Notes under the pieces: model-generated
The model's input: the letters and a program-made list of their open reading frames with translations, nothing else
Databases searched by the model: none
Told to the model about the DNA's origin: nothing
From: a virus
Lineage: Duplodnaviria > Heunggongvirae > Uroviricota > Caudoviricetes
DNA length: 24,218 nucleotides
IMG/VR virus record: IMGVR_UViG_2537562231_000018
Reading direction: 5' to 3' (one strand)
Shown here: piece after piece, positions 12,630 through 18,972 of the stretch
How positions within the stretch are numbered: position 1 is the first letter of the stretch
How the letters are laid out: each line of letters starts with the position of its first letter
Program-made: the position numbers and the translations under genes

Positions 12630-13034
12630 ATGAAATCATTAACCGCAGTGCGTAAAAAAAGCCCTAATTATCCCGTTGAGTTCAAAATCAAAATGGTTGA
12701 ACTCTCGCATCGACCAGAGATCTCCGTAGCGCAACTCGCTCGTGAGCATGGGATCAACGATAATTTGCTGTTCAAGTGGCGCCAGTACTGGCGCGAAGGA
12801 AAACTACGTCCTCCTTCAACAACAGAAAACAACGTGCCTGAGCTGCTCCCGATAACACTTGATGCCGAAGATGTTGTCCCTACAACCTCCCCCCGGTCAC
12901 AACCTGTAGCTGCTGCGACACCTGAATCACTCAATATCAGCTGTGAAGTGACGTTCCGGCACGGATCACTCCGTCTGAATGGTGCCATCAGCGAAAATAT
13001 CCTGAACCTGCTGATACGGGAGCTCAAACGTTGA
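12630..13034 (+). CDS. IS66-family accessory protein (orfA/TnpA)
   Basis: 134 aa; EFKIKMVELSHRPEISVAQLAREHGINDNLLFKWRQYW HTH region typical of IS66 orfA. Confidence 0.85.
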   Translation: MKSLTAVRKKSPNYPVEFKIKMVELSHRPEISVAQLAREHGINDNLLFKWRQYWREGKLRPPSTTENNVPELLPITLDAEDVVPTTSPRSQPVAAATPESLNISCEVTFRHGSLRLNGAISENILNLLIRELKR

Positions 13035-13378
13035 TCCCATTACCATCAGGGACAAAGATCTGGCTGGTCGCTGGCATCACCGATATGAGAAACGGCTTCA
13101 ACGGCCTGGCGGCAAAGGTGCAGACGACGCTGAAAGACGATCCGATGTCAGGTCACGTTTTTATCTTCCGTGGGCGTAATGGCAGTCAGGTAAAGCTCCT
13201 CTGGTCTACCGGCGATGGACTGTGTCTGCTGACCAAACGGCTGGAGCGCGGCCGCTTCGCCTGGCCGTCAGCCCGGGATGGCAAAGTGTTCCTCACACCG
13301 GCACAGCTGGCGATGCTGCTGGAAGGTATCGACTGGCGGCAGCCTAAAAGACTGCTTACGTCCCTGACTATGTTGTAA
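13031..13378 (+). CDS. IS66-family orfB (TnpB)
   Basis: 115 aa; KIWLVAGITDMRNGFNGLAAKV..HVFIFRGRNG..KLLWSTGDGLCLLTKRLE, the characteristic IS66 orfB pattern; ATGA overlap with orfA. Confidence 0.85.
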   Translation: MIPLPSGTKIWLVAGITDMRNGFNGLAAKVQTTLKDDPMSGHVFIFRGRNGSQVKLLWSTGDGLCLLTKRLERGRFAWPSARDGKVFLTPAQLAMLLEGIDWRQPKRLLTSLTML

Positions 13379-13426
13379 GCCTCTTTATCCTGGTCGACGC
13401 TGAATGAGCCTGGTAATATACCCGGT

Positions 13427-14965
13427 ATGAGCAGCTCACTTCCTGACGATATCAATGCACTGAAACGTCTCCTTGCCGAACAGGAGGCGCTGAACCGTGC
13501 CCTGCAGGAAAAGCTGAACGAGCGTGAACGCGAAATAGACCATCTGCAGGCACAGCTGGATAAGCTGCGCCGGATGAACTTCGGCAGCCGCTCGGAAAAA
13601 GTCTCCCGTCGTATCGCACAGATGGAAGCTGACCTGAAGGCACTTCAGAAAGAAAGTGATACCCTTACCGGTCGGGTTGACGACCCGGCCGTGCAGCGCC
13701 CGCTGCGTCAAACCCGCACCCGCAAACCGTTCCCCGAATCACTCCCCCGCGATGAAAAACGGCTGCTGCCGGCAGCGTCATGCTGCCCGGAATGTGGAGG
13801 CTCGCTGAGCTATCTGGGTGAGGATGCCGCCGAACAGCTGGAGCTGATGCGCAGCGCCTTCCGGGTTATCCGGACTGTACGTGAAAAGCATGCCTGTACT
13901 CAGTGCGATGCCATCGTGCAGGCCCCCGCGCCTTCACGGCCCATCGAGCGGGGTATCGCAGGACCGGGGCTGCTGGCCCGCGTGCTGATCTCAAAGTATG
14001 CAGAGCACACCCCGCTGTACCGCCAGTCTGAAATGTACGGCCGCCAGGGCGTGGAGCTGAGTCGTTCACTGCTGTCGGGCTGGGTGGATGCATGCTGCCG
14101 GCTACTGTCACCGCTGGAAGAAGCGCTTCAGGACTATGTGCTGACTGACGGTAAGCTCCATGCTGATGACACGCCTGTCCCGGTGCTGTTGCCAGGCAAT
14201 AAGAAAACGAAGACCGGGCGGTTATGGACCTACGTTCGTGACGACCGTAACGCCGGGTCAACGCTGGCGCCGGCGGTGTGGTTCGCTTACAGCCCGGACA
14301 GAAAAGGCATCCATCCGCAGACCCATCTTGCGGGGTTCAGTGGTGTACTGCAGGCGGATGCATACGCCGGGTTCAACGAGCTGTACCGGGATGGCCGGAT
14401 AACGGAAGCCGCTTGTTGGGCTCACGCCCGCCGTAAAATCCACGATGTGCACGTTCGCACCCCGTCAGCCCTGACGGAGGAAGCGCTGAAACGGATCGGC
14501 GAACTGTACGCCATCGAGGCAGAGATAAGGGGAATGACGGCGGAGCAGCGCCTTGCCGAACGTCAGTTGAAAACGAAACCGCTGCTGAAATCCCTGGAAA
14601 GCTGGCTGCGTGAAAAGATGAAAACCCTGTCGCGACACTCAGAACTGGCGAAAGCGTTCGCATACGCCCTGAACCAGTGGCCGGCGCTGACGTACTATGC
14701 AGATGATGGCTGGGCTGAGGCGGACAATAACATCGCTGAAAATGCGTTGCGGATGGTCAGTCTGGGCCGCAAAAACTACCTGTTCTTCGGTTCGGATCAT
14801 GGAGGAGAGCGGGGAGCGCTGCTGTACAGCCTGATCGGGACGTGCAAACTGAACGGAGTGGAGCCAGAAAGCTACCTCCGCTATGTCCTTGACGTCATAG
14901 CCGACTGGCCGATAAACCGGGTCGGCGAACTGCTCCCCTGGCGCGTAGCACTGCCGACTGAATAA
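13427..14965 (+). CDS. IS66-family transposase (orfC/TnpC), intact
   Basis: 512 aa; N-terminal coiled coil, CCPECGG..C.QC zinc motif, [27 protein letters not shown] and downstream catalytic region. Confidence 0.9.
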
Positions 14966-15501: not shown

Positions 15502-15927
15502 TCACAGCACCACCTCCTGAAAATTCCCCTGATAAAACGCCAGCACGCGCTGCATAACTTCGCTCTTCCGGCACTCGCTACAGATTATGTTCTGACGCCT
15601 GTCATAACGACGTATTTCTCCGTCTGGTAACGACCAGATAAGGTCCGGATCAACCACAGGTGTTTTTTTCTTCAGCTTTGCCCTTGAGAGTTTTTTGCGG
15701 GCGTTTTGCCAGTCCTTACGAGCCTGTTCAGACGGGAATAACCCGTAACCAGAGTTGTATACATCACCACTGGCAACCAGCTCTCTGGCGAGAACGCTCA
15801 TCAGATATCTTGTCGCACCTGTCTTGGCTTCCAGTTGCCGTAACGTCTCGCGCCCACTCCGGCGTACTAGCTCAACAACCTGCCCTTTAATTTTTTCTCG
15901 CTCTTCTTGTGTAAAAACTTTTGCCAC
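15502..15927 (-). CDS. hypothetical early-region protein
   Basis: 141 aa from a GTG start with AGGAGG 5 nt upstream; CSEC motif near the C-terminus. Confidence 0.45.
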   Translation of the reverse strand: MAKVFTQEEREKIKGQVVELVRRSGRETLRQLEAKTGATRYLMSVLARELVASGDVYNSGYGLFPSEQARKDWQNARKKLSRAKLKKKTPVVDPDLIWSLPDGEIRRYDRRQNIICSECRKSEVMQRVLAFYQGNFQEVVL

Positions 15928-15967: not shown

Positions 15968-17053
15968 TTACCCCCTGAAGCCTGGCGGAATTTCGGTATC
16001 CGGTTCAGAAACATGATTCACACAACGCTGGTTGTTCGTGCCGCTTACCGGGAGCAACCAGGGGTTTTCAAAATTCCGGTCCGGTCCAAAAAACGTCGTC
16101 GCTCGCTGAACAAATTCCGTTCCCGTTTTCCCGGTAGTCGCCAGGTATCTTGCGTAACGCCTCACGCCATCCAGCATGGCCTCTGGTGGCACCCCCTCGC
16201 GTAATCTGGCCTTCCAGGCACTGAAAGCGGATTTCTTCGGGTTTGCTCCGGCACGCAACGGGTATTCCCGCCAGACCTGTTCGAACACATCCGGATAATC
16301 CACTCGTCCCACAGGCTGCCCGGTGTTTTCCGGGACTACCTGATCGGCTTCCCGCTGAATGGCGGAATCGGCTTCAGGCTGCTGCAGTTGGTGTGATTGT
16401 TCCGGCTTTGCGGTCATCGCCTGCTGCACAGCGCCCGAATCGGCTTCCGGTGTCGTGCCTGCTGGTTGACCAGGATTGACGTTCTGAACATCCCCTGCCT
16501 GGTTCGTGGCGATTTTTTCGCCATGAAGCATAGTATTTTTATCCTGCTCCTGTTCTTTCTCCTGTTCCTGTTCTTGGCTTAGAAGCCCCTTTAAAGCCTC
16601 TTCGAAGCCCCTTGCTGAATTCCGGCGATTATTCCGCCTCACATCCAGATGGAAATCCGTTTTATATCTGTCGTAAAAGGCTGACAGAAAGGCGTTTTCA
16701 GGTAATGATGCATACTCATTCCTGACACCTGCACAACGGTTATCTCCAGGCTTCAACGTTTCCCCAACCTGCCAGGCTGCCATTTCATGGACCCAGACCA
16801 TCTCGGCATCATGGTCATAGCTACAAAAACCAGCTTCAACAGCCCTTTTAAGCCCCTTCGAAGCCCCTTCCGGACCAAGCCCGGTTTCATGAGCAAGGTA
16901 CAAAACTGGCAGGTAATACAAACCCAACATATTTGCGTGAGGGGATGTCATCAGGTAAAAAGCAACAACTTGCGCTTCTGCACCCGCCTTTCTAAGTTCT
17001 CTCCCCGTTTCTCCCAGCCAGAATCGCGGGGAAACTTTTGCATAATCACGCAT
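15968..17053 (-). CDS. putative replication initiation / replisome-organiser protein
   Basis: 361 aa from ATG 17053 (GAGGTG SD); tracker TTG start at 17074. Assigned by position downstream of the YdaS/YdaT-like genes and a C-terminal region (DVFEQVWREYP..SAFSAWKARL) reminiscent of phage replication proteins; contains a short QEQEQEKEQEQ low-complexity linker. Confidence 0.45.
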   Translation of the reverse strand: MRDYAKVSPRFWLGETGRELRKAGAEAQVVAFYLMTSPHANMLGLYYLPVLYLAHETGLGPEGASKGLKRAVEAGFCSYDHDAEMVWVHEMAAWQVGETLKPGDNRCAGVRNEYASLPENAFLSAFYDRYKTDFHLDVRRNNRRNSARGFEEALKGLLSQEQEQEKEQEQDKNTMLHGEKIATNQAGDVQNVNPGQPAGTTPEADSGAVQQAMTAKPEQSHQLQQPEADSAIQREADQVVPENTGQPVGRVDYPDVFEQVWREYPLRAGANPKKSAFSAWKARLREGVPPEAMLDGVRRYARYLATTGKTGTEFVQRATTFFGPDRNFENPWLLPVSGTNNQRCVNHVSEPDTEIPPGFRG

Positions 17054-17059
17054 GTTCAC

Positions 17060-17095
17060 CTCGTCTGGAGCCAAACCTTCCTCTGGTTATAATCT
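17060..17095 (+). promoter_or_regulatory. candidate promoter for the plus-strand gene 17133..17528
   Basis: Perfect -10 TATAAT at 17088..17093 with a weak -35 (CTGGAG) 17 bp upstream; followed by a strong SD AGGAGG at 17121..17126. Confidence 0.4.
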
Positions 17096-17132
17096 GTGAT
17101 TCACTAATCAACAGAACCAGAGGAGGTTCGAA

Positions 17133-17528
17133 ATGGATTTTGCAACTATCACAAGTAGCGTTGTGTTGAGTGCGTGTGTTGCTGGCGTGGTTTCGCTGGT
17201 TAATGGTGCCTGGCAACGCAAATCGGAACGAACCATTGAAGCGCAACGCCGGGCTGCTGAAGCCAGAGCAAAAATAAGAGAAATGGCTCTCACCCTCGCA
17301 TTGAAAGAATGGGAGCTCCACCAAACCATATCGAAGGCAAAGGGGTATGGTGTCAGCGGCCCAGAAGTTTACGTCTTTCGATACTTTCGTATGCTCAACC
17401 TGATGGAGGAAGACAAATTCACGATTGAAAATCTCAGACTGATCCAGTACGACTCCATGTGTGCTGTTGCAGCAATTCAGGCAGAGATCGAGCGATATCG
17501 GGAGAAAAACGGCCTCCCGATGCCATAA
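17133..17528 (+). CDS. hypothetical membrane-anchored coiled-coil protein, oriented against the surrounding early operon
   Basis: 131 aa; N-terminal TM helix (ITSSVVLSACVAGVVSLVNGAW) then a charged helical region (RKSERTIEAQRRAAEARAKIREMALTLALKEWELHQ..); own -10 and strong SD. Confidence 0.55.
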   Translation: MDFATITSSVVLSACVAGVVSLVNGAWQRKSERTIEAQRRAAEARAKIREMALTLALKEWELHQTISKAKGYGVSGPEVYVFRYFRMLNLMEEDKFTIENLRLIQYDSMCAVAAIQAEIERYREKNGLPMP

Positions 17529-17532
17529 ACAA

Positions 17533-17754
17533 TCAGCGTTTTTCATCTTTCCAAATCCTCATATCAGGCTTGCGCCCAATGAACCGACGAAGACAATTTA
17601 AAGTCCATCGGGTGAAGTAATCCCTGAAACCAAAGAGATACCAGGTGAACAGATTCACGATAAAATGTCCGGCCAGAGCCCCACCAATACCACAGGCAAG
17701 AACAGTAAAAAAATCAGGTAGATTCACAGCCCCCTCCGTCATTGTTAACGCCAT
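17533..17754 (-). CDS. hypothetical small membrane protein
   Basis: 73 aa with a central hydrophobic segment (FFTVLACGIGGALAGHFIVNLFTWYLFGF); 8 nt downstream of the YdaT-like stop; weak SD. Confidence 0.35.
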   Translation of the reverse strand: MALTMTEGAVNLPDFFTVLACGIGGALAGHFIVNLFTWYLFGFRDYFTRWTLNCLRRFIGRKPDMRIWKDEKR

Positions 17755-17762
17755 CCGTGCTT

Positions 17763-18188
17763 TTAGTGCATCACCACGGCATTTCCTGCAGGGCCACCAC
17801 GGTTCATCTGATTGAAACCGGCAATCGCCACTGCGACAAAATCATCAGCGTCTCTCACCAGTCGTTCCCGCGTCTCCACCAGCTCCCGAAAATAGGCTGA
17901 ACTGTGGCTGCGCATTCGGGCCACCAGCAAAGGTGGCATTGCCTTTTCGATCGCTGGTAACAACGCCTGAATTTTTTCAACAGCATCAGGGGTGTCTTTC
18001 TCTACCCAGCGGAAAATTTTCTGTGTATTGCGAGCCAGGGCTTCCGGATGGCTGTCGTCATACAGTTCAGGAAACGTTATACCCAACTCAAAATAAGCCT
18101 GGGTTATTCCAGCTGCTGGAACTTTTTCGCCATCAGGACGCGCCCAGGCATTCATCGCCATGCGGATGTGTTCATGCTTGATTTTCAT
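17763..18188 (-). CDS. ydaT: YdaT-like protein (CII-position gene of Rac-type immunity regions)
   Basis: 141 aa starting MKIKHEHIRMAMNAWARPDGEKVP, the YdaT-family start as I recall it; directly downstream of and overlapping the YdaS-like gene. Confidence 0.6.
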   Translation of the reverse strand: MKIKHEHIRMAMNAWARPDGEKVPAAGITQAYFELGITFPELYDDSHPEALARNTQKIFRWVEKDTPDAVEKIQALLPAIEKAMPPLLVARMRSHSSAYFRELVETRERLVRDADDFVAVAIAGFNQMNRGGPAGNAVVMH

Positions 18189-18453
18189 GAATCAAGCTCC
18201 TAGAAAGTGGTTGTGTTAACGTTTTGGTATCTTCCAGCTCGGGCCAAATATTCATCCAATCAAAAGGCCTTAGTTGCTGACGTGTAACTTCACCATTACT
18301 GGCTCGCTCAATAAGGACACATAACGATGCCCCTAACACTTGACCTTTACTCAATGCCTTTCTTAGATAACCGATGCTGGTACCACACTCGCATGCAAAC
18401 ATACGCTGTTCATCTGACGAAAGAGAATTGAGAAATATTCTTAATTCTTCCAT
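18172..18453 (-). CDS. ydaS: YdaS-like HTH protein (Cro-position regulator)
   Basis: 93 aa; HTH-like segment QRMFACECGTSIGYLRKALSKGQ; AAGGAG SD; divergent from the repressor across an operator-bearing intergenic region. Confidence 0.6.
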   Translation of the reverse strand: MEELRIFLNSLSSDEQRMFACECGTSIGYLRKALSKGQVLGASLCVLIERASNGEVTRQQLRPFDWMNIWPELEDTKTLTQPLSRSLIHENQA

Positions 18454-18482
18454 AGCTACTCCTTAGTAAACACAGCAAAGAA

Positions 18483-18518
18483 TACCCACAGGTAAACAAA
18501 AGTAAATACCCACAGGTT
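18483..18518. promoter_or_regulatory. OR-like operator pair: TACCCACAGGTA (18483..18494) and TACCCACAGGTT (18507..18518), overlapping divergent promoters
   Basis: Two near-palindromic 12-mers 24 bp apart between the YdaS-like and repressor genes; the same motif recurs twice downstream of the repressor gene. Confidence 0.6.
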
Positions 18519-18553
18519 GTTTACCTTGCAGTAATCGCATCTATTATTTACCT

Positions 18554-18972
18554 ATGGACAAATATGAATTTAGACGACAGCAACTCATCAAAATTCGTGA
18601 TGAGAAATGCGATGGTAAAGCGGTTAACGTGGCCAGAAAGATCGGGCGCGAGCCTTCTTATGTATCAAGAATGTTGTACCCAGAGGGGAAAAAGGGAAAA
18701 AACGGATCGCTGATGATATGGTGGAGATTATCGAAGAGTCCTTTGGGTTACCCCGGGGATGGATGGATGGTATCGTTTCATCATCAACGAACACAGCCTC
18801 CAGTTATGAAACAAGGGTTCTAACGCCACGACAACGTATTTTTTTAGATCTCTTAGACGAACTGCCAGAAAGTGAAGCGGATAACTTATTAAAAACTCTT
18901 GAAGAGAAAAAACAGTATTACAATATGATCTACGAAGAAATCCGTAAAAAGAAAGCACAAAACGCATCATAG
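18554..18972 (+). CDS. RacR/cI-type repressor candidate, split by an apparent frameshift at the A6 run 18697..18702
   Basis: ORF 18554..18823 carries an N-terminal HTH (GKAVNVARKIGREPSYVSRML); ORF 18718..18972 continues in the +2 frame. One extra A in the A6 run would join them into a roughly 140-aa protein. The ATG has no SD and sits 7 nt after a TATTAT -10, so the mRNA would be leaderless like lambda cI. Confidence 0.5.

What the first reader, a model, noticed from the sequence alone, without database searches (positions are those of the whole stretch)
17060..17528. Reverse-oriented membrane/coiled-coil gene with its own consensus promoter inside the early operon
Every neighbouring early gene (YdaS-like, YdaT-like, replication genes) is on the minus strand. 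This 131-aa gene is on the plus strand with a perfect TATAAT -10, a strong AGGAGG SD, an N-terminal TM helix and a charged helical tail. That arrangement is typical of lysogen-expressed morons such as superinfection-exclusion or abortive-infection proteins, but the sequence matches no family I can name, which makes it the best candidate here for an undescribed accessory function.
Basis: partly seen in the sequence, partly recalled or inferred. Interest (0 to 1): 0.6.

Follow-up and report, generated by a model that had tools for sequence, protein, structure and literature searches.

The report
Known prophage anti-phage gene PD-λ-6
The reverse-oriented 131-aa membrane gene is real, but it is not undescribed: it is PD-λ-6, a prophage gene already shown by experiment to protect E. 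coli against phage lambda, and its mechanism is still unknown.

Summary
All neighbouring early genes are on the minus strand. The protein matches the PADLOC model PD-Lambda-6 over its full length (E=9e-90). PD-λ-6 is a one-gene system selected on λvir and validated by Vassallo et al. 2022 (PMC9519451) from a 912-bp clone with its native promoter. The claim that it is undescribed is wrong. No fold, domain or mechanism is known. AlphaFold gives an N-terminal membrane helix and a three-helix body, with no structural match.

New observations:
- In all 22 loci with a ≥83%-identical homologue, the gene sits tail-to-tail (4 nt apart) with a conserved 64-aa membrane ORF (17533-17727, -; dN/dS 0.12).
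- That small ORF lies in the phage lytic operon and was inside the published clone.
- The pair moves as a 665-bp module between different prophage positions.
- The same promoter and ribosome-binding cassette drives an unrelated gene (ECs1072 family) in about 450 other E. coli genomes.
- The literature label "lipoprotein" is doubtful.

The most likely mechanism is a post-adsorption block of superinfecting phage at the inner membrane. This is inferred, not shown.

The parts
17065..17093 (+). Promoter of PD-λ-6: -35-like CTGGAG (17065-17070), 17-nt spacer, -10 TATAAT (17088-17093).
   Evidence: Read from the sequence. The block is conserved with the module in Trabulsiella, Citrobacter, Salmonella and E. 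albertii as TTGGTG-17-GATATT/GATACT. The consensus scanner did not call it. Function is inferred from the native-promoter clone in PMC9519451.
17120..17126 (+). Shine-Dalgarno sequence GAGGAGG, 6 nt before the ATG. It lies within a 5-bp hairpin, GAACC(17115-17119)/GGTTC(17125-17129).
   Evidence: AGGAGGTTCGA-ATG is near-invariant across contexts. One search lists the same hairpin on the other strand.
17133..17528 (+). PD-λ-6 coding sequence, 131 aa (RefSeq WP_000344866.1, 'hypothetical protein'). It has an N-terminal membrane helix and a body of about 100 aa made of helices.
   Evidence: ORF; PADLOC PD-Lambda-6, E=9.2e-90, positions 1-131 of 131; PHROG 36733; RefSeq accession; AlphaFold; dN/dS 0.04.
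17533..17727 (-). Conserved 64-aa small membrane protein gene. It starts at GTG 17727 behind a GGAGG ribosome-binding site (RefSeq WP_135247427.1). It is tail-to-tail with PD-λ-6 and co-oriented with the early lytic operon.
   Evidence: RefSeq annotation; present next to every ≥83%-identical PD-λ-6 homologue, 22 of 22 loci; dN/dS 0.12 against Trabulsiella; start codon aligned across species; one hydrophobic segment and a basic tail.
17066..17730 (.). The mobile two-gene module: promoter, PD-λ-6 and small ORF. This is the only stretch shared with the Trabulsiella prophage, where it sits among head genes.
   Evidence: blastn boundaries 17066-17730 against L004, and 17115-17716 against E. albertii L005; Trabulsiella context.
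17142..17781 (.). Cargo that differs from the equivalent slot in O157-type prophages. There, an ECs1072-family gene follows the same promoter, ribosome-binding site and ATG.
   Evidence: homology to L002 ends at 17141 and resumes at 17782.
17763..18188 (-). Flanking early gene, YdaT-like.
   Evidence: PF06254, E=7e-10.
15968..17053 (-). Flanking replication gene (DnaD-like helicase loader / replication initiation), divergent from PD-λ-6. RefSeq places its start at 17053.
   Evidence: PHROG 1701, E=1e-144; RefSeq start.

Best explanation
**Identity.** The gene is PD-λ-6, a single-pass inner-membrane protein carried by lambdoid prophages of Enterobacteriaceae.

**Expression logic.** It has its own σ70-type promoter, which points against the phage's lytic transcription. 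It is therefore made in the lysogen. It should be silenced by head-on early transcription once the resident phage goes lytic (inferred).

**Activity.** The reference allele lowers plaquing of λvir. The paper reports that no cloned system changed adsorption (published).

**Most likely mechanism (inferred, about 45-50%).** It is a superinfection-exclusion protein.
- It is anchored N-out/C-in by a small-residue-rich helix (residues about 3-27).
- It blocks an early membrane step of an incoming phage, most plausibly passage of the genome across the inner membrane.
- An induced resident prophage does not need that step, so the carrier phage needs no self-immunity.

**Small ORF.** A conserved 64-aa membrane protein gene lies tail-to-tail with PD-λ-6 in the lytic operon and travels with it. 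It may be a partner or an antidote. This is unproven.
For: **Identity**
- PADLOC PD-Lambda-6, E=9.2e-90 over positions 1-131 of 131.
- The reference ORF has the same length, and the system is listed as validated (PMC9519451 Tables S1/S2).

**Published activity**
- It was selected on λvir and cloned with its native promoter on a low-copy plasmid. Adsorption was reported unaffected for each system.

**No enzymatic signature**
- Pfam and NCBIfam give no hit.
- The published HHpred run gives only weak matches over the membrane-helix region, residues about 6-40.
- A 24-member family alignment has no invariant residue.

**Topology**
- An acidic, uncharged-to-negative N-terminus (MDFATITS), a 25-residue hydrophobic helix, then 8 K/R in 24 residues.
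- The AlphaFold model has helices 3-70, 77-92 and 98-126.

**Moron logic**
- The gene is antisense to its neighbours in five different prophage positions: after ydaT, after cro or pRha, among head genes, and between terminase and lysis genes.
- The promoter and Shine-Dalgarno sequence are conserved with the module.
- The same promoter cassette drives ECs1072 in O157. A microarray study of the Sakai lysogen lists ECs1072 among significantly changing genes (PMC2241611).

**Prior for exclusion (my own knowledge)**
- Prophage-encoded small membrane proteins that protect without changing adsorption are mostly DNA-entry blockers. Examples are P22 SieA, P1 Sim, HK97 gp15, T4 Imm and TP-J34 Ltp.
Against: - The step that is blocked has not been measured in any text available here.
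- The figure showing whether PD-λ-6 behaves as Abi (Fig. 3a/b of PMC9519451) could not be read.
- 12 of the 21 systems in that screen were Abi-like.
- If the bulk of the protein is cytoplasmic, as the charge distribution suggests, it cannot touch the phage tail tip directly.
- The membrane helix is rich in small residues, like pinholin helices. The published HHpred list includes class II holins at 59-87% probability. This fits a pore-forming Abi effector equally well.
- The promoter in this window has a weak -35, and the scanner did not call it.
- The exact identity of this allele to RRK48647.1 could not be checked residue by residue.
Confidence: 0.85

Rival explanations
1. Abortive infection. 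A phage product triggers PD-λ-6 through its cytoplasmic helical domain. The protein then oligomerises through its small-residue membrane helix, depolarises the inner membrane and kills the infected cell before progeny are made. The small lytic-operon membrane protein would spare the resident phage's own lytic growth.
For: - 12 of 21 systems in the source screen were Abi-like.
- The published HHpred run lists class II holin helices for residues 9-40 at 59-87% probability.
- The membrane helix has A/G/S spacing of the GxxxG kind (SACVAGVVS), conserved in kind across the family.
- A conserved convergent membrane ORF sits in the lytic operon in both the 131-aa clade and the 139-aa clade.
Against: - The protein is tolerated when expressed constitutively.
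- It has one membrane helix, whereas class II holins have two (own knowledge), and there is no Pfam holin hit.
- The small ORF also flanks unrelated cargo, so it is not a dedicated antidote.
- Distant family members lack it.
Confidence: 0.3
2. The published phenotype needs the small 64-aa ORF as well, or comes from it instead. On this view PD-λ-6 is really a two-gene convergent system.
For: - The cloned region 425952-426863 extends about 257 bp either side of the ORF. That corresponds to window ~16876-17786 and contains the whole small ORF and its ribosome-binding site.
- Co-occurrence is strict in 22 of 22 loci.
- The module boundaries end exactly at the small ORF's start.
- The small ORF is under purifying selection.
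Against: - No recognisable promoter for the small ORF lies within the clone; this was judged by eye only.
- The same small ORF occurs without PD-λ-6 next to other cargo, and it is frameshifted in the one copy inspected (L024) of the 251 E. coli genomes that carry it without PD-λ-6.
- Homologues at 20-35% identity have no such neighbour.
Confidence: 0.15
3. PD-λ-6 is a lipoprotein, as later papers call it. The signal peptide would be cut before Cys15, and the helical domain would be periplasmic. There it could bind the incoming tail tip or tape-measure protein, or the receptor complex, as Ltp and Llp do.
For: - LSAC at residues 12-15 fits the lipobox pattern.
- Vassallo et al. list 'a lipoprotein' among their features.
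- Two later papers attribute that label to PD-Lambda-6.
Against: - There is no K/R in the first 7 residues, and the hydrophobic helix continues 12 residues past the Cys.
- A strongly basic segment follows. The positive-inside rule (own knowledge) argues against exporting it.
- Cys15 is Gly in the 45%-identical clade and is absent from all distant members.
- The top HHpred line in Table S3 is 'LapA_dom; Lipopo', a truncation of 'lipopolysaccharide assembly protein A'. That may be the origin of the label (inference).
Confidence: 0.2
4. The gene's main role is regulatory rather than defensive. Its promoter fires head-on into the early operon and dampens leaky replication-gene expression, which stabilises lysogeny.
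For: The gene and its promoter lie between ydaT and the replication gene and face the early transcript. The -35 region overlaps the replication gene's ribosome-binding site.
Against: - The protein sequence is under strong purifying selection (dN/dS 0.04).
- The module also sits in late-gene operons.
- The cloned gene protects in trans in a host without that prophage.
Confidence: 0.05

Closest known systems
PD-λ-6 (PD-Lambda-6; Vassallo et al. 2022, Nat Microbiol; PADLOC PDLC04020; reference protein RRK48647.1 from E. coli UMB6655)
   Same: Full-length HMM match at 295.6 bits, the same 131-aa length, and the same single-ORF architecture with an N-terminal membrane helix. The gene is carried by lambdoid-type prophages in every locus examined here.
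   Different: Nothing detectable. Residue-by-residue identity to the reference protein could not be checked. This report adds the conserved convergent small ORF and the module boundaries, which the paper does not describe.
Prophage superinfection-exclusion membrane proteins: P22 SieA, P1 Sim, HK97 gp15, T4 Imm (own knowledge)
   Same: These are small membrane-anchored proteins expressed from the prophage. They protect against related phages after normal adsorption. They are moron-like genes with their own promoters.
   Different: There is no sequence or fold similarity. A DNA-entry block has not been shown for PD-λ-6.
P22/λ SieB with Esc and the antisense sas RNA (own knowledge: Ranade and Poteete 1993)
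   Same: A lysogen-expressed membrane-associated Abi protein is switched off for the phage's own lytic growth by transcription from the opposite strand. The layout here would allow this, because the early operon reads antisense through PD-λ-6.
   Different: There is no homology. No antisense regulator or internal start has been shown here. The opposite-strand product here is a separate small membrane protein.
ECs1072 family phage-associated protein (NCBIfam NF033230)
   Same: It occupies the same slot between ydaT and the replication gene, in the same orientation. It sits behind a 93%-identical promoter, Shine-Dalgarno sequence and ATG cassette.
   Different: It is an unrelated 151-aa protein (BLASTP E=4.4). 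It has no small ORF downstream, no PADLOC hit, and no known function.
Class II (pin)holins (Pfam Phage_holin_2_x)
   Same: A small-residue-rich membrane helix. The published HHpred probabilities are 59-87% over residues 9-40.
   Different: There is only one predicted membrane helix and no Pfam hit by hmmscan. The roughly 100-aa cytoplasmic helical domain has no counterpart in holins.

Membership tests
PD-λ-6 (PADLOC PDLC04020) | Full-length match to the family HMM | tested here: met
   E=9.2e-90, 295.6 bits, protein 1-131 against profile 1-131 of 131. Homologues down to 20-30% identity still hit only this model.
PD-λ-6 (PADLOC PDLC04020) | Single ORF of about 131 aa with an N-terminal membrane helix and no recognisable domain | tested here: met
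   The published HHpred list shows the same picture.
PD-λ-6 (PADLOC PDLC04020) | Confers resistance to λvir without loss of adsorption | not testable with these tools
   Shown for the reference clone in PMC9519451. This allele has not been assayed.
PD-λ-6 (PADLOC PDLC04020) | Carried by a lambdoid prophage | tested here: met
   The gene has a RacR/YdaS/YdaT-type immunity region, a replication module, lysis genes and terminase around it in complete genomes.
Bacterial lipoprotein (Sec/SPII substrate) | Lipobox [LVI][ASTVI][GAS]C near the end of a signal peptide | tested here: met
   LSAC at residues 12-15.
Bacterial lipoprotein (Sec/SPII substrate) | Positively charged n-region (K/R in the first ~7 residues) and a non-hydrophobic mature N-terminus | tested here: not met
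   The N-terminus is MDFATIT, with no K/R. Hydrophobic VAGVVSLVNGAW follows the Cys. The rule itself is from my own knowledge of the PROSITE PS51257 criteria.
Bacterial lipoprotein (Sec/SPII substrate) | Lipidated Cys conserved among homologues | tested here: not met
   The Cys is replaced by Gly in the 45%-identical clade. There is no Cys at that column in 18 distant members.
Class II holin | Two transmembrane helices and a Pfam Phage_holin_2 match | tested here: not met
   There is one hydrophobic segment and no Pfam family at E≤0.1. Only weak HHpred probabilities have been published.
Known superinfection-exclusion families (SieA, Sim, Imm, gp15, Cor, Llp, Ltp) | Sequence or fold homology to a characterised member | tested here: not met
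   The only family hits at significant E-values are PD-Lambda-6 itself and PHROG 36733 (unknown function); none is to an exclusion protein. There are no structural matches.
Known superinfection-exclusion families (SieA, Sim, Imm, gp15, Cor, Llp, Ltp) | Blocks genome entry of the superinfecting phage | not testable with these tools
   This needs a DNA-injection assay.

The most novel reading that the evidence does not exclude
PD-λ-6 is not a one-gene system. It is half of a mobile 665-bp convergent module. The defence protein is made in the lysogen. The 64-aa membrane protein on the other strand is made only when the host phage's lytic operon fires, and it neutralises or partners PD-λ-6. This would be a built-in self-immunity switch. 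More broadly, the small ORF and the shared promoter cassette would mark exchangeable reverse-cargo slots. Their other occupants (ECs1072; the 310+275-aa and 209+158-aa pairs in nin regions) would be undescribed defence genes.
Probability: 0.2. Interest if true: 0.55.

Novelty: already known. Interest (0 to 1): 0.27.

Why it matters
The gene itself is already catalogued, so finding it here adds another carrier prophage and nothing more. The remaining value lies in four points.
1. PD-λ-6 has a validated phenotype but no mechanism.
2. The published minimal clone contains a second conserved membrane gene that always accompanies PD-λ-6. The "single-gene" assignment should be re-tested.
3. The "lipoprotein" descriptor that later papers repeat is weakly founded.
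4. The conserved promoter cassette and the small ORF mark slots in lambdoid prophages. Those slots hold other unannotated reverse-oriented genes, which are cheap candidates for new defence functions.

Tried and rejected
**Domain and family searches**
- Pfam and NCBIfam gave nothing for the 131-aa protein or for the small ORF.

**Structure and profile searches**
- Foldseek against PDB had a best E-value of 1.5, and against BFVD a best of 0.84.
- A PDB sequence-profile search had a best E-value of 0.11.
- The afdb50 library was not available.

**Collection searches**
- tblastn against 50,697 sequenced phages gave no match, so the gene is known only from prophages.
- The scan of GTDB species representatives found only Trabulsiella guamensis and E. 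albertii.
- The broad alignment was too diverse for that scan.

**RNA**
- Rfam on 16500-18700 gave only a chance hit below threshold.

**Antisense ORF**
- A 166-aa antisense ORF (17046-17546, -) spans the whole gene. I rejected it as coding because it is broken into two ORFs in Trabulsiella.

**Terminators**
- Terminator-like hairpins are no more frequent than in shuffled sequence: 4 found against 2.1±1.7 expected.

**Small ORF as a dedicated partner**
- I first read the small ORF as a dedicated PD-λ-6 partner. I weakened this after finding it next to other cargo and frameshifted in the one nin-region copy inspected, from an EHEC genome.

**Literature**
- A search for the accessions found nothing.
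- Only three papers name PD-Lambda-6 in their text, none with mechanistic data.
- The main text of Vassallo et al. never discusses PD-λ-6 individually. Its figures, which hold the phage range and the Abi call, are not readable here.

Full report
**1. Observation**

The window holds an ATG-started ORF at 17133..17528 (+), 131 aa. Its signals read directly from the sequence:
- TATAAT lies at 17088-17093.
- GAGGAGG lies at 17120-17126, 6 nt before the ATG.

With a 17-nt spacer the -35 hexamer is CTGGAG, only 2 of 6 matches. The consensus scanner did not list the site. "Consensus promoter" overstates the case.

All flanking early genes are on the minus strand:
- a Cro/YdaS-like gene at 18172-18453 and a YdaT-like gene at 17763-18188 (Pfam);
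- a replication/helicase-loader-like gene at 15968-17053 (PHROG 1701; RefSeq start);
- a DUF977 gene at 15502-15927.

The protein has one hydrophobic segment, residues about 3-27, followed by a basic stretch. AlphaFold2, run with an 8-sequence alignment, predicts helices at 3-70, 77-92 and 98-126 (pLDDT 83.8, pTM 0.52).

The gene is real. The exact protein is recorded on at least 1000 contigs. dN/dS against the 88%-identical Trabulsiella copy is 0.04.

**2. Identity**

Pfam and NCBIfam give nothing. PHROGs gives family 36733, of unknown function (E=1e-91). PADLOC gives PD-Lambda-6 (PDLC04020) at E=9.2e-90 over all 131 positions.

PD-λ-6 comes from the functional selection of Vassallo et al. 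2022 (PMC9519451). The relevant facts are:
- The source was clone Lambda-64 from E. coli UMB6655, CDS RRK48647.1, ORF 426209-426605.
- The region cloned was 425952-426863, and the system is listed as validated and as "Hypothetical".
- All systems were cloned on a low-copy plasmid under their native promoters.
- The paper reports that each system left adsorption unchanged and reduced plaquing of the selecting phage.
- The authors' HHpred run found only weak matches over the membrane-helix region: LapA_dom at 87.5% and class II holins at 59-87%.
- There was no match to the defence-island seed clusters of Gao et al..

RefSeq calls the protein WP_000344866.1, "hypothetical protein".

**3. Distribution**

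The family is very small.
- A search of 5.8 billion clusters found 8 clusters at 90% identity. They come from E. coli, Salmonella, Citrobacter, Trabulsiella and E. albertii, plus a 45%-identical clade of 139-aa proteins.
- An exhaustive profile search of 1.84 billion representatives found 27 proteins at E≤0.001.
- A profile search of the clustered database found 52 clusters. Most are metagenomic singletons of 110-140 aa with the same layout.
- A 24-member alignment has no invariant column. It shows a small-residue membrane helix, a basic juxtamembrane stretch, an "LAxxEW+xH" helix and a "PxxVYxxxYxxLxxME…LT" helix.
- That pattern fits a binding or structural protein better than an enzyme.

Only 17 of 5426 complete E. 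coli genomes carry the gene. No sequenced phage in the INPHARED set carries it. No solved or predicted structure resembles the model.

**4. Anatomy beyond the finding**

*(a) A second gene.* Four nucleotides after the stop codon, on the other strand, lies a 64-aa ORF at 17533-17727. It starts at GTG behind a GGAGG site and is annotated as WP_135247427.1.
- It has one hydrophobic, glycine-rich segment (LACGIGGALAGHF…) and a basic tail.
- It is under purifying selection, with dN/dS 0.12 against Trabulsiella.
- Its start codon aligns across species.
- It is present tail-to-tail in all 22 loci examined that hold a ≥83%-identical PD-λ-6.

*(b) Module boundaries.* Homology to the Trabulsiella prophage covers only 17066-17730, which is the promoter plus both genes. 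Homology to E. albertii covers 17115-17716.

*(c) Positions in prophages.* The pair occurs at different places:
- after ydaT in E. coli;
- directly after cro or pRha in Citrobacter, Salmonella and metagenomic contigs;
- among head genes beside the major capsid gene in Trabulsiella.

The 139-aa clade lies between the terminase and lysis genes of an Enterobacter prophage. It also occurs beside BrnTA. In every case PD-λ-6 is antisense to its neighbours. The 139-aa clade also has a convergent small membrane ORF of 46 or 44 aa, with unrelated or barely related sequence.

*(d) Promoter conservation.* The promoter block travels with the module and is conserved as TTGGTG-17 nt-GATATT, with AGGAGG and a 5-bp hairpin around the Shine-Dalgarno sequence.

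*(e) A shared cassette with different cargo.* About 450 other E. coli genomes, mostly O157 and other EHEC, have the same replication-gene start, promoter, Shine-Dalgarno sequence and ATG at 93% identity. Downstream lies an unrelated 151-aa ECs1072-family gene with no small ORF. A microarray study of the O157 Sakai lysogen lists ECs1072 among the genes whose expression changed significantly (PMC2241611). This gives indirect support that the cassette is active in lysogens.

*(f) The small ORF is not exclusive to PD-λ-6.* In 251 E. coli genomes a copy at about 84% nucleotide identity lies after ninE. In the three loci inspected it is convergent with other unannotated reverse-oriented cargo: 310+275 aa, or 209+158 aa, with no PADLOC hits for either pair and no Pfam hits for the 310+275-aa pair (the 209+158-aa pair was not scanned against Pfam here; the contig table lists no Pfam family for it). 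Of those three copies one (L024) is frameshifted in a T-run and two are intact. The small ORF is therefore best described as the conserved right flank of an exchangeable reverse-cargo slot. It is invariably linked to PD-λ-6, but it is not proven to work with it.

**5. Consequence for the published system**

The 912-bp clone spans about 257 bp on each side of the ORF. That corresponds to window ~16876-17786 and contains the complete small ORF and its ribosome-binding site. The sub-library mapping used 6-12 kb fragments. The published data available here therefore cannot tell whether PD-λ-6 alone is sufficient.

**6. The "lipoprotein" label**

Vassallo et al. list "a lipoprotein" among the unusual features they found. 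Two later papers attribute that label to PD-Lambda-6.

In favour of the label, the protein does carry LSAC at residues 12-15, which fits a lipobox.

Against the label:
- There is no K/R in the n-region.
- The hydrophobic helix runs 12 residues past the Cys.
- A strongly basic segment follows.
- The Cys is Gly in the 45% clade and is absent from the distant members.

The top HHpred line in Table S3 is printed as "LapA_dom; Lipopo". That is the truncated name of the lipopolysaccharide assembly protein A domain, an inner-membrane helix. I infer that this truncation may be the origin of the label. I rate an N-out/C-in membrane anchor at about 70% and a lipoprotein at about 20%.

**7. Mechanism**

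Shown, by publication:
- The reference clone protects against λvir.
- The paper reports that no cloned system affected adsorption.
- Expression came from the cloned native sequence.

Shown here:
- The protein is a membrane protein with no enzymatic signature.
- It is always antisense to the phage's lytic operon, with its own conserved promoter.
- It is always linked to a small membrane ORF in that operon.

Inferred:
- The protein is made in the lysogen. When the resident phage is induced, early (or late) transcription runs head-on through the gene and should silence it.
- The most economical mechanism is superinfection exclusion at an inner-membrane step, probably genome entry. An induced prophage skips that step, so the carrier needs no self-immunity. 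This is also how most known small prophage membrane proteins with normal adsorption work (P22 SieA, P1 Sim, HK97 gp15, T4 Imm, Ltp; my own knowledge). I put this at about 45-50%.
- The main rival, at about 30%, is abortive infection by membrane permeabilisation through the small-residue helix. In that case the small ORF could act as an antidote.
- The confidence of 0.85 in the report refers to identity and defence role, not to the mechanism.

**8. Verdict**

The gene is an already known, experimentally validated defence gene, so novelty is "already known" and interest is low. The residual interest lies in three points:
- the unrecognised conserved partner ORF inside the published clone;
- the portable 665-bp module;
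- the two slot markers, which point to further uncharacterised reverse-oriented cargo genes.

Noticed in passing
window 17054-17141; L002 4153-4239: The promoter, Shine-Dalgarno sequence and ATG cassette upstream of PD-λ-6 is 93% identical to the one in front of the unrelated ECs1072-family gene (151 aa, unknown function, no PADLOC hit). ECs1072 sits in the same ydaT/replication-gene slot in about 450 E. coli genomes, mostly O157 and other EHEC. ECs1072 is therefore a candidate moron or defence gene.
   Followed up: partly
L024 1540-3338 (+), L028 1707-3505 (-), L027 3568-5172 (-): In the nin regions of EHEC prophages, the same small 64-aa ORF is convergent with other reverse-oriented gene pairs of 310+275 aa and 209+158 aa. 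Neither pair has a PADLOC hit. The 310+275-aa pair also has no Pfam hit; the 209+158-aa pair was not scanned against Pfam here, and the contig table lists no Pfam family for it. These are possible uncharacterised defence cargo.
   Followed up: partly
window 18554-18972 (+): The divergent gene on the repressor side of the immunity region is split into two ORFs of 89 and 84 aa. The cause is a 1-nt deletion in an A-run at about 18696, relative to the 99.85%-identical locus L019, where the ORF is intact at 139 aa. This is either a real frameshift in the immunity gene or a homopolymer sequencing error.
   Followed up: partly
window 12630-14965 and 20527 onward (extent beyond 21299 not examined): IS66-family elements (HTH_Tnp_1, TnpB_IS66, and for the left element a 512-aa DDE transposase) are inserted on both sides of the early region. 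The prophage is therefore IS-ridden and probably defective. The O157 locus L002 also has an ISEc8 next to a truncated DUF977 gene.
   Followed up: no
window 17046-17546 (-): A 166-aa ORF is open antisense across the whole PD-λ-6 gene. It is broken into two ORFs in the Trabulsiella homologue, so it is probably not coding. The early transcript must cross about 480 nt of this untranslated antisense stretch to reach the replication gene.
   Followed up: partly
L001 1487-4031 (E. coli PG20180057, same prophage type): In a sister prophage, an ABC-three-component system (a DUF2326 protein, middle component 6 and an ABC-3C protein) lies a few genes downstream of the replication module. This is a second accessory or defence slot in the same phage family. 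Other sister prophages carry ParDE or HokD there.
   Followed up: no
L005 3278-3873 (E. albertii NBRC 107761): Both PD-λ-6 and the small ORF carry frameshifts in this species-representative genome. The two genes appear to decay together, or the draft assembly has indel errors.
   Followed up: no
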